A stretch of 63,179 nt of DNA, the filler included, from Octopus bimaculoides (taxonomy: Eukaryota): the NCBI RefSeq assembly GCF_001194135.2. It is 6 parts of 6 records of this genome, joined end to end, with 100 filler letters (N's around TTAATTAATTAA, not from the genome) between each part and the next. Parts side by side here need not be neighbours in the genome. Positions count along the whole stretch, not along the records: positions 1 to 7,830 come from NC_068983.1; positions 7,931 to 18,613 come from NC_069005.1; positions 18,714 to 24,608 come from NC_068984.1; positions 24,709 to 34,145 come from NC_068996.1; positions 34,246 to 60,150 come from NC_068992.1; 1 more part is not named here. The stretch is one strand, 5' to 3'. The notes under the pieces were generated by a model. It was not told where the DNA came from. It ran no database searches and saw only the letters and a program-made list of their open reading frames with translations. Positions 212-40,439 of the stretch are shown in pieces; the first letter of the stretch is position 1, and each line of letters starts with the position of its first letter. Made by a program: the position numbers and the translations under genes.

Positions 212-521
212 ATTAAAATTAATCAAAGGACATACTACCTGCTGGAAATAACAGTCTACCTGCTGGAAATAACACTCAAAACTCTTATTGTGAGAGATGA
301 GTGGGAACGCGTGCTGAAGAAGCTAAGGCGATTTTTTGCCAGTGCAGAAACCGGTCCACGTGAGTTCAAATACTTAAATATACGCTAGGAGATTTTATTG
401 ACCTGATCTGCCTTCGGTTGGTTTCTGTAATTATCAGTGTATTTTGGCGATTTAAATAAGAGTTTTGACTGTAATTTCCAGCAGGTAGGCATACTTAATA
501 TGTCCTTTGATTAATTTTAAT
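212..521. mobile_element. Foldback element with ~65-80 bp terminal inverted repeats (probable Penelope-type pseudo-LTR derivative)
   Basis: 212-289 (attaaaattaatcaaaggacata...ctacctgctggaaataacactcaaaactcttatt) is the imperfect reverse complement of 456-521. It encloses a hammerhead fold and lies next to a Penelope-like ORF fragment. Confidence 0.6.
305..367 (+). ncRNA. Type I hammerhead ribozyme motif (HHR-1)
   Basis: Stem I gaacgcgtg(305-313)/cacgtgagttc(357-367); core CTGAAGA 314-320; stem II gc..ggc/gcc..gc 322-345; GAAA 347-350; palindromic minimal stem III ccgg; GTC triplet 354-356. Confidence 0.7.
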
Positions 522-744
522 TATATATATATATATATAATTAAAAGTTAGGGTACAATATGCACCTGCTTGCTAGAAAAAAAGAGTTAAACTCTCCAAA
601 GCCATTCATCTCTCAATATGTAATCACGCACGGAGAATGTAGCAAATATACTAAAAAACATTCCCCGCCCCCATTTGTAAAGCCACAAAGGGCGTAGACA
701 TGCCAGTATCAATTGCATATTTTACCCTAACTTTTGTAATATAT

Positions 745-1500
745 TCATTTGTGTTAAGGTTGGATTTAATTCGTTGTCTTTGTAGGGTATTGAAGGGAAA
801 ATTGATAATGTGTTCACAAAAATCATCAAGTGTTTTATTTCTGCCTTTTGTAGGACAATATTCGCTTTTGTTTTTTTATTATTGAATTATATTCGCTGGT
901 TTAATTGTGAAGTGCTTCTGTGAGGCGTAATTTTCGGCAAAAATCCCTAATGTTATCCTTAATTTCATTCGGGTTCGATCTGCGAGGGGTTAGTGTAAAC
1001 TTTAAGCCTATTTCTAGAATTTTAGTTTGTGTGGTACTTAGGATTTTCTTTGATAAGTTGATTATTTTAGGTAGTTCTCGTACATTTTGTTCCATTTCAC
1101 ATCTCTGTTTCTCTGATTTAGCTCTAAAAAAATGGTCGTAGTAGGTGGATTGTTGTGGGAAGTCTGTATTGTGTTTGGTTTGGTGAGGAGAAAATGGGTG
1201 TAAAATGTATCTGTGGTAGTATGTTTGTGGTGGAGTGACTGTGTAGTGGACTAGATTATGGTTGTATGGCGGTTTTGAGCGGTAATTGCAAAATGTTGAA
1301 GCAGGCGCTCGTTGTGTCCCCATCCAGCCAATTAAAACAGATGGCTAGTTGTTAATAGGAAATTTCGTCGCCAGTTACGGTGGATCAGCCACAGATTGTT
1401 GTATCAGTAAGCTTGTCGTAAACTCCAAGCAGTATGTATCTCCCAGTATATAATTGATACTGTTAGTATTTGTAAAAGCCTAACATAGTTAAAACTCTAT
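745..1500 (-). mobile_element. Decayed Penelope-like retroelement, pre-RT N-terminal ORF region
   Basis: ORF 901-1323 encodes IINLSKKILSTTQTKILEIGLKFTLTPRR...IRDFCRKLRL, and 745-895 continues KSEYCPTKGRNKTLDDFCEHIINFP...KSNL. Both match the motifs that precede the RT domain in Penelope-like elements (recognised from memory). Confidence 0.7.
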
Positions 1501-1828
1501 GTGCAATAATGAAATTATCTCTAAATTGTTCGCACCCCGAGAAACATTTTCATTCATCAAGTCAACCAGTCATCATCTAGGACCAACCGGCAACAACAAA
1601 CAACACTGCAACCCACAACAACACATTTGATAATGGTACATCTACAAACCTCATGGTAGATTTACATACCTATAAAAGTCATGTTGTTCACAGCTGCAAT
1701 GCCTTTAATCATAGACTTTATGTCGATTAAGGATTCCCAGCAGCTAAACAAGAATAACATCAATCACAACAACAATCACAACAGGAACAGAAACAAAAAA
1801 TAAACAATTCAATATCGTCTTCGAAAAA

Positions 1829-2065
1829 GGCGGCGAGCTGGCAGAAACGTTAGCATAATAACCTCAGGCCAACCAAAACCCTGTGAGCGGACCCGGCAGA
1901 CGGAAACTGGAAAAAACCCGTCGAAATGCTTAGCGGTATTTCGTCTGTCTTTACGTTCTGAGTTCAAATTCCGCCGAAGTCGACTTTGCCTTTCATCCTT
2001 TCGGGGTCGATAAATTAAGTACCATTACGCACTGGGGTCGATGTAATCGACTTAATCCCTTTGTC
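1829..2065 (+). mobile_element. Chimeric SINE: family A with a family-B core fragment inside its head
   Basis: A head ggcggcgagctggcagaaacgttagca 1829-1855, then B-like ggccaaccaaaaccctgtgagcgga...gacggaaactg 1861-1921, then the A body resumes at cgaaatgcttagcggtatttcg. Confidence 0.7.
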
Positions 2066-2135
2066 TGTCCTTGTTTTTCCCCCCTATATTTAGCCCCCTG
2101 TGGGCAATAAAGAAATAAATATTGTCTTGAAAACA

Positions 2136-2347
2136 AGCGGCGAGCTGGTAGAAACGTTAGCACGCCAGGTGAAATGCTTAGCGGCATTTCGTTTGTCTTT
2201 ACGTTCTGAGTTCAAATTCCGCCGAAGTCGACTTTGCCTTTCATCTTTTCGGGATCGATAAATTAAGTACCAGTTGCGTACTGGGGTCAATCTAATCGAA
2301 TGACCCCATCCCACAAAATTTCGGACCTTCTGCCTAGAGTAGAAAAG
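2136..2347 (+). mobile_element. SINE family A (tRNA-like head, gtcgactttgcctttcatc..gataaattaagtacc core, probably Meta/MESC-type)
   Basis: Multi-copy within the window; imperfect TSD aatattgtctt(g/a)..aaac at 2118-2134 and 2348-2364. Confidence 0.9.
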
Positions 2348-2694
2348 AATATTGTCTTAGAAACGAGAAATGCCCATGTGAGTTTAAGATTGTAATATCA
2401 TTCTTGTTATGTCATCTGTATACTTCGTATGTGTATTTCGTGTGCAAGATTCTTGATGTGGATACGTGTGTTGAAAGAAATACAATTAAACCTTGGGAGA
2501 GGCATTATGCCGGTAATAAACACACGCACTGGTTTATTCAAAATAAATGGAAGTGGAGAGACAAGTTACGGAAGAGATTGCAAGAGTGCAATGAAATAAT
2601 TTAACAAAAAACTATATAAATTAATAAAGGACTGAACCAGTGCGTGTGTTTATTACCGGCATAATGCCTCTCCCAAGGTTTAATTGCATCTGTA

Positions 2695-37854: not shown

Positions 37855-37899
37855 ATCCAAATGCCCTTATCTTTAATAATATGCTTGTTTTAAATTCTG

Positions 37900-39660
37900 C
37901 TCCTCAATATCACGTCTTTCGAGTTGGAATCCACTCCTGGAAATCTGTTGCTTGTGAATATGTGATGAACATTCATCACACAACATCTAGTAGTAGACGT
38001 TCATCATTCTGAGATTACATTTTTACTATCTTCTTTCAACTTCTTTTATACCTTGATGAAACCCTTCCTTACTAGCATCCCTTAGAATCCAACTAAGCAC
38101 TCGAACTTTTCCAGCATTCTTCCTATAGTCTTTGTAGTTGATCCTTGTGATTCTTTATCAAATTTGTAAACCTTATCCATGCATGTTATTCAGAATCACT
38201 AAAAGTGGTTTCAAAATTTTCATCCTTTTTATTTTGGTCCAACTAATATACCCTCATCAACCTTAGTATCTTATAGGACAGGAAACTTGCCATGCGAAGC
38301 TCTCTCTATCCTGCGACAAAGCTTTTACGAATTGCTTTATAAGACCGAGTTTTATGTGTAGAGAAGGCAAAGGAATGCTTTTCGAATCAACCAAACTTTC
38401 TCGGAGAATATTCTTTGTTCTTGTTCTAGGTGCATCTCTACATGACTATTCTTTCCTAGACTAATGTAGGTTCCTAACTCTACTGACCCGTTCACACAAG
38501 AAACAAGGAGACTTTTTTTTAACGTGACTGGTGTCCAAACAATGTGCAAATTACCTTTTATTTATTAATTGTTTTAGCCATTAGACTGCGGCCACACTGT
38601 ATTTTAGACGTAGGAGTCTTAAAGTATTTTAGACGCGGGAATCGGCTCCATTAATTATTTTTCAAGCCTTGTACTTATTCTATTGGTCTCTTGAGTCGAA
38701 CAGCTAAGTTATGGGGACGTAAACATACCAACAGCCGTTGTCAAGCAGTGGCAGTGGACGAATACAGACACAAAGAAATGCAACCACATAGATATATGTA
38801 CACGACAGGCTTTTCTCAGTTTCCGTCTATCAAATCCATTTACAAGGCTTTGGTTGGGCCCTAAGCTACAGTAACAGATGCGACTGAACCCAGAATGATG
38901 TGATTGGGAGGTAAACGTATCACACAACCACACCTGTGCCTATATTCAAATCATTCACTTGTGATCGTTGAATTTAATCTTGTGTAGGACTGAAATCAAA
39001 TTTTCATACGTTCCCTTCTTGATCATTGAGGTTCCTATAGAATATTTATTATCATTGTGTAGTAGAACAGCTTTAACACTTCTCTCTGAAAAATCAATAA
39101 CGAATCCTCATCTACCAGGGCTGTAACTTATACCAACCTTTCCTACTAGTTCTGATGGATCTCTTCTATAAACCAAATCATTGTCTTGAGTGAAATATGG
39201 ACCAAATTCTTTTTCGCGGTTGCAATAGTAATAGAGTGAAACGTAAGGATTTAAAAGGAGTTAAAATCTCTTCTGACTCTTCTACGAGCCCAAAGTCACT
39301 CTGAAGATCCATTAATTTACACTGGTTATATAACTGAGGTTCTTCCCCTTCACTGTATTCGAGTTGTTTCCTGCACCTCACATGAGCGAAAGTAGTAGTC
39401 AGTGATGTTTAGACCCCCTCCATATCATTCAGAACCCAAAACGAAACGACCTCCTTGTACATTTTGTCCATTGTCTGAGTTTCTCAACATAAATTCAGCA
39501 GACCTTCTCATTTTGGTCTACTAATTTCGCACCAAAATAAGAGGTATGGTAAGATTCTTTAACAAATTCGAAATGTTTCTCTGATGTGTTTTAGTCATAA
39601 AAACTTCACAAATGTAATAATTATCTGGGCTTGCTACACATCTTCTAGAGGACGCCCATG
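37900..39660 (-). pseudogene. Near-complete decayed DNA-transposon transposase, probably CMC-Chapaev3-like
   Basis: Ordered motifs in broken minus frames: SPDNYYICE..YFGAKL; EPQLYNQ; NREKEFGPYFTQDNDLVY; FVIDFSERSVKAVLLHNDNKY; LPSLHIKLGLIKQFVKAL; KVDEGILVGP. Transposase identity is confident; the superfamily name is from memory. Confidence 0.75.
38570..38945 (-). mobile_element. SINE family B inserted in the transposase pseudogene
   Basis: gccattagactgcggcc...tttctcagtttccgtctatcaaatcc...ccacacctgtgcc. Confidence 0.8.
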
Positions 39661-39777
39661 CTTCGAATGGCGTGGATGTTTGTAAGGAAAGGAGAAGGGG
39701 ACATTTCTAATAGCACATATTTGATTTACCGTCTGAATATATAATTATCATTAAAGAGGCATTGAAATGTAACATAC

Positions 39778-40163
39778 GGCACTCTCTTTTACCCTTTTAC
39801 TTGTTTCAGTCATTTGACTGCGGCCATGCTGCAGTACCGCCTTTTAATCGAGCAAATCGGCCCCAGGACTTATTTTTTGTAAACCTAGTACTTATTCTCT
39901 CTTTCTCTTTTGCTGAACCGCTAAGTTACGGGGATGTAAACACACCAGCATTGGGGGGGGGACAAACACAGATACACAAACACACACATGTATATATATA
40001 TACATATATACAACGGGATTCTTTCAGTTTCCATCTACCAAATCCACTCACAAGGCTTTGGCCGGCCCGAGGCTATAAGAGAAGACATTTGCCCATAATG
40101 CCACGCAGTGGGACTGAGCCATGTGGTTGGTAAGCAAGCTACTTACCACACAGTCACTCCTGC

Positions 40164-40165
<2 letters not shown>
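39778..40165 (-). mobile_element. SINE family B
   Basis: ttacttgtttcagtcatttgactgcggcc...accacacagtcactcctgcg. Confidence 0.92.
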
Positions 40166-40218
<53 letters not shown>

Positions 40219-40378
40219 NNNNNNNNNNNNNNNNNNNNNNNNNNNNNNNNNNNNNNNNNNNNNNNNNNNNNNNNNNATTCTAAAACTACAAATTTTTCTC
40301 TAATTGATAGCGATATTTATGGTACACACAGAACAAAAAACAGAAGAGAAGAGTAAAAAACAAACCTGCCTTTAATTA

Positions 40379-40439
40379 ATTTGGTACGACGTTTCACGGT
40401 TAGTGGTATGAATTACCTCATTCCGATCTTCAGCCAAAT
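40379..40439 (-). ncRNA. Type I hammerhead ribozyme motif (HHR-2)
   Basis: Minus strand: atttgg-CTGAAGA-t-cgg..ggta/tacc..ccg-t-GAAA-cgtcg-TA-ccaaat; perfect 6-bp stem I, GTA triplet. Confidence 0.7.

What the first reader, a model, noticed from the sequence alone, without database searches (positions are those of the whole stretch)
305..40439. Three dissimilar hammerheads share a non-canonical 10.1/11.1 pair
Seen: the base after CTGANGA and the base before GAAA are A/A (HHR-1), T/T (HHR-2) and T/T (HHR-3), although the three share no obvious sequence elsewhere and each has a paired stem just inside that position. Established: canonical hammerheads have a Watson-Crick pair there, usually G-C. 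Inference: recurrence suggests a lineage-specific hammerhead variant rather than random decay, and canonical searches could miss it. This is the best candidate for an undescribed system here, though such variants may already be reported.
Basis: partly seen in the sequence, partly recalled or inferred. Interest (0 to 1): 0.72.

Follow-up and report, generated by a model that had tools for sequence, protein, structure and literature searches.

The report
Mismatched hammerheads in Penelope-type repeats
These self-cutting-RNA (hammerhead) motifs sit in jumping repeats of what is probably an octopus genome, and the odd mismatch is inherited within whole repeat families, but the U-U form is already published and the A-A form is likely two extra bases flanking a normal G-C pair; cutting is untested.

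Summary
Four type I hammerhead motifs lie in the range: A/A at 314 and T/T at 36463, 37725 and 40433. In three repeat families the mismatch is the family state (A/A 28 of 28, U/U 28 of 29, U/U 29 of 30). The 37725 copy is decayed: its family has G-C or G-U. The hosts are Penelope-like element (PLE) ends (36463, Hydra clade) and ORF-less 430-570-nt tandem units. It is not one undescribed variant. U·U at this pair is in print: 14 of 25 Hydra-clade PLE families, an axolotl motif that cleaves, and a phage hammerhead. The 2014 PLE search descriptor already allows an extra base on both sides. A/A belongs to a second class, H-G...C-W, in which the flanking bases vary freely around a kept G-C (2,691 matches against 14 control). 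C·A of this class is tabulated for a Chara PLE; I found no explicit A·A in print. Mismatches dominate here (63 of 100 sampled motifs). RNA reads showed no cut ends. This scan noted U·U before in phages, and octopus PLE hammerheads elsewhere. Interest 0.3.

The parts
306..362 (+). Hammerhead of family F1: stem I 308-313/357-362, CUGAAGA 314-320, A321 and A346 flanking G322-C345, GAAA 347-350, palindromic CCGG, predicted cut after C356 (GUC)
   Evidence: cut site inferred from the hammerhead consensus
302..539 (+). Sense part of the F1 non-coding unit (unit 432-473 nt in tandem copies elsewhere)
40..289 (-). Inverted partial copy of the F1 unit, next to a (TA)n run (PLE-type fold-back insertion)
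40379..40439 (-). Hammerhead of family F3: U40426·U40396, stem II CGG/CCG just inside, predicted cut after A40385 (GUA)
40283..40649 (-). Sense part of the F3 non-coding unit (570-571 nt in tandem copies), cut by an N gap
40859..41157 (+). Inverted partial copy of the F3 unit
36382..36467 (-). Hammerhead of family F4: U36456·U36398, long stem II, palindromic CGAUCG, predicted cut after A36386; this copy has a private stem I mismatch
36262..37074 (-). 3' end of a Hydra-clade PLE (F4), 5'-truncated; 84% identical over 825 nt to the 3' region of L259, which lies behind RT and GIY-YIG sequence on the same strand
37678..37728 (-). Hammerhead of family F2, an old copy: T37718/T37693 is a private state, family G-C or G-U
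37674..37898 (.). F2 remnant: sense 37809-37674 plus inverted part 37813-37898 (unit 425 nt at one tandem locus)

Best explanation
The motifs are type I hammerheads with palindromic stem III at the ends of Penelope-like elements or in ORF-less tandem units likely mobilised by them, and they would cut their RNA as dimers (untested here). Two separate variants occur. Class U (36463, 40433): U·U sits in the true 10.1/11.1 position; sister families have G-C or G·U in the same register, so it likely arose more than once by G-C to G·U to U·U, a tolerated and published substitution. Class H/W (314): the G-C just inside is the conserved pair and the two flanking bases vary freely (A·A, C·A, U·A, A-U, U·U), best read as the known PLE extra base after A9 plus a second extra base before G12 (the 3D register is inferred). 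37725 is a decayed copy. Shown: sequence states, family membership, covariation, PLE linkage of F4, tandem units of F1, F2 and F3. Inferred: cleavage, dimer use, the helper enzyme of F1 and F3, the structural register.
For: Family state: A/A 28 of 28, U/U 28 of 29, U/U 29 of 30 distinct rows. F3 lineage: 8 of 13 pairs change on both sides, 0 of 500 shuffles reach the score, and position 10.1/11.1 is G-C in 2 and U·U in 10 of 12 hand-picked rows. G-Y and U·U relatives occur together in at least three flank-defined clusters, and G-Y relatives of F4 were seen by eye (L020, L248, L320). In an unselected sample of 100 motifs, of those with stem I of 3 bp or more, the inner pair is G-C in 25 of 29 H..A motifs but 1 of 9 U·U motifs. 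H-G...C-W: 2,691 matches against 14 control; H-H...A: 768 against 163, the listed ones largely decayed copies or noise. F1 relative L315 keeps A·A and G-C while the next pair flips. F4 lies behind RT and GIY-YIG on the same strand in L259 (Pfam GIY-YIG E 0.012, below cut-off); U·U motifs lie ahead of such RTs in L132 and L138; the proteins carry DKT, RWK, CxCX5C and CxxC/CxH, the Hydra-clade marks. Tandem units without ORF (longest stop-free frame 44-52 aa). F1 co-folds as a dimer through stem III, -37.1 against 2 x -15.6 kcal/mol. Print.
Against: No cleavage shown: in three RNA-seq runs (about 6% of each read, apparently unstranded, one study) no read ends pile at the predicted cut of an F3 tandem unit or of the commonest A·A family. 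Dimer minimum-energy folds of F2, F3 and F4 do not give the hammerhead fold. No autonomous partner was found for F1 or F3; the RT beside F1 in L012 is on the other strand and its 3' flank holds no F1 sequence. Family rows were the 30 best-scoring of 393, 1,145 and 2,913 candidates, ranked by likeness to the window copy. Clade assignment is by motif and by eye, with no tree. 52 of the 100 sampled motifs come from two families. One H..A-like family (L187, L289) has no inner G-C.
Confidence: 0.72

Rival explanations
1. One lineage-specific variant in which a non-Watson-Crick 10.1/11.1 pair is positively required, for example to slow cutting or make it depend on the PLE protein.
For: Mismatches outnumber G-Y about 4 to 1 (A·A 1,357, U·U 1,449, C·A 1,125, G-Y 990 of 7,632). 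Subfamilies of one lineage show A·A, C·A and U·U. A lizard PLE hammerhead cuts only with its protein (PMC11167929).
Against: The same lineages also hold Watson-Crick A-U and U-A subfamilies and G-Y sisters, which looks like relaxed constraint. U·U is widespread outside cephalopods. The two classes differ in their inner pair.
Confidence: 0.15
2. The motifs are dead or nearly dead ribozymes carried passively: each founder had a damaged pair, and PLE copying does not need cleavage.
For: Hammerhead mutants did not impair PLE insertion in vitro (PMC11167929). No cut ends in RNA reads. True for the single copy at 37725.
Against: Cores stay intact and all three stems co-vary across subfamilies that carry the mismatch. 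A U·U motif of axolotl cleaves.
Confidence: 0.1
3. Chance look-alikes in AT-rich DNA.
For: Folding z-scores near zero; a few pattern matches come from SINE-like repeats (L182, L270).
Against: 3 found against 0.045 expected; 7,632 against 779 genome-wide; covariation.
Confidence: 0.01

Closest known systems
Hammerheads of Hydra-clade PLEs (Craig et al. 2021, PMC8557442, File S2)
   Same: Type I, short palindromic stem III, near the 3' end of DKT/RWK/CxCX5C elements with (TA)n preference. By my reading of the table, 14 of 25 families (13 distinct motifs) have U...U flanking stem II, one has U...C, the rest G-C or G-U; the Chara PLE-X1 row has C + G-C + A.
   Different: No A·A row in that table; the paper calls them canonical and does not discuss the pair in the passages I saw. 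Stems II here are longer and often branched (F3, F4). F1 and F3 are ORF-less units.
Minimal PLE hammerheads (Cervera and de la Pena 2014, PMC4209133)
   Same: Consensus CUGANGA-H-G...C-GAAA with an extra base after A9; descriptor allows an extra N10 and an extra N11; Hydra and D. willistoni rows show the lone U on both sides; dimer model; low activity.
   Different: The paper stresses a conserved G10.1-C11.1 with one insertion; here a second insertion (H-G...C-W) is the commonest single class. One of its 56 rows reads AGAAA; by extraction order it may be the Cotesia row (A + G-C + A), which I could not confirm.
Axolotl retrozyme HHR_Amex2 and metazoan non-LTR retrozymes (Cervera and de la Pena 2020, PMC7229834; Li et al. 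2026, 10.64898/2026.07.22.740005)
   Same: U·U at the base of helix II in about 60,000 copies, 22% cleavage in 1 h as monomer and more as dimer; non-coding tandem units; proposed PLE mobilisation.
   Different: Units here are longer (425-571 nt against 170-400 nt), mostly solo or fold-back, with no obvious loop 1-loop 2 contact; circles not shown.
Natural U10.1-U11.1 hammerhead (Perreault et al. 2011, PMC3088659)
   Same: Stem II starting with U·U; the paper states that U·U supports more activity than any other mispair.
   Different: Not PLE-associated; I saw the text of the section, not the rate in its figure.

Membership tests
Type I hammerhead ribozyme | Core CUGANGA / GAAA / UH in type I order | tested here: met
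Type I hammerhead ribozyme | Three helices supported by covariation | tested here: met
   F3 lineage: 8 of 13 pairs change on both sides; H/W class across families: all 5 stem I pairs; rows hand-picked
Type I hammerhead ribozyme | Watson-Crick pair directly after A9 and before G12 (canonical G10.1-C11.1) | tested here: not met
   A·A or U·U in F1, F3, F4; met by the F2 family majority. Published natural exceptions:
Type I hammerhead ribozyme | Rfam hammerhead model match | tested here: not met
   No hit in the window at E up to 1; none at gathering score in 10 G-Y and 10 mismatch loci
Type I hammerhead ribozyme | Self-cleavage 3' of N17 | not testable with these tools
   RNA-seq read ends uninformative
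PLE-associated hammerhead, Hydra clade | Lies 3' of RT and GIY-YIG, or in the repeat ahead of the ORF, on the sense strand | tested here: met
   F4: L259, L252; relatives L132, L138; intact layout in L227 with G·U motifs 3,727 nt apart
PLE-associated hammerhead, Hydra clade | Same linkage for F1, F2 and F3 | tested here: inconclusive
PLE-associated hammerhead, Hydra clade | Protein marks DKT, RWK, CxCX5C, CxxC/CxH | tested here: met
   Read from translations; no tree built
PLE-associated hammerhead, Hydra clade | Fixed 3' end, variable 5' truncation, inverted partial copy, (TA)n target | tested here: met
Non-LTR retrozyme | Non-coding tandem units, one hammerhead per unit | tested here: met
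   Direct repeats at 3 distinct F1 places (432, 439, 473 nt; 4 of 30 loci, two overlapping), 2 of 30 F3 loci (570, 571), 1 F2 place (425)
Non-LTR retrozyme | Abundant circular RNA | tested here: inconclusive
   Reads on F3 are mostly 90-95% alike, on both strands and run on into other sequence; joints cannot tell circles from genomic tandems
Non-LTR retrozyme | Canonical loop 1-loop 2 tertiary contact | not tested
   No conserved contact was apparent by eye; not analysed

The most novel reading that the evidence does not exclude
H-G...C-W is an unrecognised, active hammerhead core subtype with a 1x1 internal loop between the A9·G12 pair and a displaced G-C pair. It has become the commonest core in this genome's PLE-mobilised elements and acts as a selected brake, or as a site for PLE-protein-dependent activation, while U·U arose repeatedly and independently to the same effect.
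Probability: 0.22. Interest if true: 0.58.

Novelty: new member of a known kind. Interest (0 to 1): 0.3.

Why it matters
If the H-G...C-W motifs cleave, the textbook core needs a recognised double-insertion form, and this genome offers a natural mutant series (G-C, G·U, U·U, A·A, C·A, A-U in sister families) for asking what the 10.1/11.1 pair does in a dimeric or protein-assisted hammerhead. For annotation, any census that demands G10.1-C11.1 would miss most motifs here (16 of 100 are G-Y). It does not reveal a new system: host elements, dimer model and U·U are known.

Tried and rejected
Rfam: only microsatellite-driven miRNA hits in the window; no hit in 20 loci. Naiad or Nematis as host clade: considered from recalled motifs, dropped because the endonuclease is C-terminal and the marks are Hydra-type. 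L012 RT as F1's partner and L069 RT as F2's partner: opposite strand, and no F1 sequence behind the L012 element. Run finder: no RNA holder listed. Read laying: no pile of ends at predicted cuts; weak test. Coupling of U·U with A at the cut site (lead e1-10028346): A17 in 8 of 9 U·U but also 9 of 12 5'-G motifs, and 3 of 14 published Hydra U·U rows, so not supported here. One search used a mis-registered structure and is void; one search replaces it. The motif at -54709 lacks UH and stem I and was not followed; the match at 61200-61270 is a SINE-like look-alike. Rows dropped before the F2 count: the window's own copy (L061) and L074 (misaligned). Papers not held and not read: Lunse, Weinberg and Breaker 2017, the mutational study I recall as Tuschl and Eckstein 1993, Nelson and Uhlenbeck 2008. 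Searches that found no A·A report.
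Full report
Setting. The window is a pack of six AT-rich, microsatellite-rich stretches from a 2.34-Gb genome. I take it to be an octopus from recalled repeat types and earlier scan notes; no call names it.

Observation. Four type I hammerhead motifs lie between 305 and 40439: F1 at +314 (A321/A346, GUC), F4 at -36463, F2 at -37725 and F3 at -40433 (all T/T, GUA). A full descriptor finds F1, F2 and F3, against 0.045 per shuffle in 200 shuffles. F4 fails only through a private stem I change. 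Monomer folding energies are unremarkable, and Rfam finds no hammerhead.

Each motif belongs to a repeat family: 393, 1,145, 12 and 2,913 first-look candidates for F1, F3, F2 and F4. I aligned the 30 best loci of F1, F3 and F4 and all 18 of F2. The pair is A/A in 28 of 28 distinct F1 rows, U/U in 28 of 29 F3 rows and U/U in 29 of 30 F4 rows, the window's copy included. Median divergence from the majority is 9.0, 4.4 and 2.5%. These rows were ranked by likeness to the window copy, a bias, but at 85-95% identity it cannot make the pattern. In F2, after dropping the window's copy and one misaligned row, 6 of 9 are G-C or G·U, one C/T, one A/T and one T/T with a broken core. So the T/T at 37725 is decay.

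Genome census. CTGANGA N12-40 GAAAC NNNN GTM has 7,632 matches against 779 for the reversed pattern. Of these A..A 1,357 (control 97), T..T 1,449 (43), C..A 1,125 (54) and G..Y 990 (71). The pattern needs a 4-nt loop III and a stem II region of at most 40 nt, so F1, F3 and F4 themselves are outside it, and a few matches are SINE-like look-alikes. All of the first 100 listed matches were fetched and counted: 63 mismatch, 16 G-Y, 21 other pairs; 52 of them come from two families.

Two classes. Among the 63 sampled motifs with stem I of 3 bp or more, the pair just inside is G-C in 25 of 29 H..A motifs and in 1 of 9 U·U motifs. In the two big families the flanking bases run through A·A, C·A, U·A, A-U, A·G and U·U while the inner G-C stays. 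H-G...C-W has 2,691 matches against 14; H-H...A has 768 against 163, and the listed ones look largely like decayed copies or noise. In 17 hand-picked rows from several families the inner G-C holds in 16, the outer position pairs in 3, and all five stem I pairs change on both sides. F1 is of this class; its relative L315 keeps A·A and G-C while the next pair flips. The 5' base is the H of the published PLE consensus CUGANGA-H-G...C-GAAA, so the simplest reading is a kept G10.1-C11.1 with an extra base on each side (inference). In F3 and F4 the inner pair is C-G, U-A or A-U, and relatives have G-C or G·U in the outer register: L308 and L309 for F3, L221 and L283 with L196, L312 and L313 with L199, and by eye L020, L248 and L320 for F4. 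There U·U is the 10.1/11.1 pair. In the F3 lineage 8 of 13 pairs change on both sides and 0 of 500 shuffles reach the covariation score (related rows inflate this).

Host elements. Copies share a 3' end, are truncated at variable 5' points, often carry an inverted partial copy and sit in microsatellites. F4 lies behind RT, linker and GIY-YIG sequence on the same strand in L259 (84% over 825 nt, with about 1.4 kb between that I did not characterise) and behind RT in L252. U·U motifs precede such RTs in L132 and L138, and L227 is a full element with G·U motifs 3,727 nt apart. The proteins show DKT, RWK, CxCX5C and CxxC/CxH, the marks of the Hydra clade (by eye, no tree; Pfam scores below cut-off). 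F1, F3 and F2 form tandem units of 432-473, 570-571 and 425 nt; the F1 and F3 units have no frame over 52 aa. They resemble non-LTR retrozymes; no autonomous partner was found.

Mechanism. Inferred from known PLE and retrozyme hammerheads: read-through transcription of tandem units, pairing of two motifs through the palindromic stem III, and cutting after GUC or GUA to release the unit, which PLE RT and endonuclease then copy. F1 co-folds this way in silico; F2, F3 and F4 do not at minimum energy. RNA reads from three runs of one study cover F3 and the commonest A·A family on both strands, with no pile of ends at the predicted cuts. This is a weak test and leaves activity open.

What is known. 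Perreault 2011 (PMC3088659; passages and section 8, supplement searched only) reports a natural U10.1-U11.1 and cites U·U as the best-tolerated mispair. Cervera 2014 (PMC4209133; main text parts 1-2 of 4, whole supplement as extracted text, figures not seen) lists Hydra and D. willistoni rows with a lone U on both sides, and its descriptor allows an extra N10 and N11. Craig 2021 (PMC8557442; passages, section 11, supplement part 2 and searches) tabulates U..U in 14 of 25 Hydra-clade families and C + G-C + A in Chara PLE-X1. Cervera 2020 (PMC7229834; passages, section 15) shows that the axolotl U·U motif cleaves. PMC11167929 (passages) reports a protein-assisted PLE hammerhead that is dispensable for insertion in vitro. 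Li 2026 (part 1 of 5 and passages; supplements closed) derives retrozymes from PLE ends. PMC6765202 (section 11 part 2, passages) and PMC6155905 (passages) gave background. I found no explicit A·A in nine searches, but Lunse 2017 was not held, and one 2014 row reads AGAAA and may be A + G-C + A. Rfam misses G-Y and mismatched loci alike.

Verdict. It is not one variant, not lineage-specific, and for U·U not new. What remains is the prevalence in this genome and the H-G...C-W class, anticipated by a descriptor and one table row but not, as far as I found, described or tested. New members of a known kind; interest 0.3.

Noticed in passing
window 36382-36467 (-): A fourth hammerhead (F4, U·U, 59-nt stem II region) that the finding's count of three leaves out or confuses with 37725; a young family with 2,913 candidates.
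   Followed up: yes
window 901-1344 (-): Stop-free frame with an NLS...GLKF-like stretch recalled as the N-terminus of a canonical PLE ORF; no Pfam hit; probably unrelated to F1.
   Followed up: partly
window 13799-13978 (+): Weak relic of a Hydra-type PLE linker region (33%, E 4e-4).
   Followed up: no
window 24005-24664 (+): 219-aa frame resembling a LINE reverse transcriptase (recalled motifs GPDG, NYRPISL), cut by an N gap.
   Followed up: no
window 1828-2060 and 2137-2300 (+); L182: Head of an abundant SINE-like repeat; one genomic copy matches the hammerhead pattern by chance, so SINEs add to the census background. Same for window 61200-61270 and L270.
   Followed up: partly
L050, L051 (F3); L008, L022, L023 (F1); L063 (F2): More-than-unit-length, circularly permuted insertions with inverted arms, as expected if a circular or tandem RNA is copied by a PLE enzyme.
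   Followed up: partly
L114, L122, L123, L144, L162: A family with G..Y at the base, a two-base internal mismatch just inside and GUU at the cut site, seen several times beside Hydra-type RTs.
   Followed up: no
L308, L309: F3 sister family: G-C at 10.1/11.1 followed by a bulged base, a possible intermediate between the G-C and U·U states.
   Followed up: partly
L177:1656-1900: A different repeat next to the A·A motif draws about 100 times more RNA reads than the hammerhead element.
   Followed up: no
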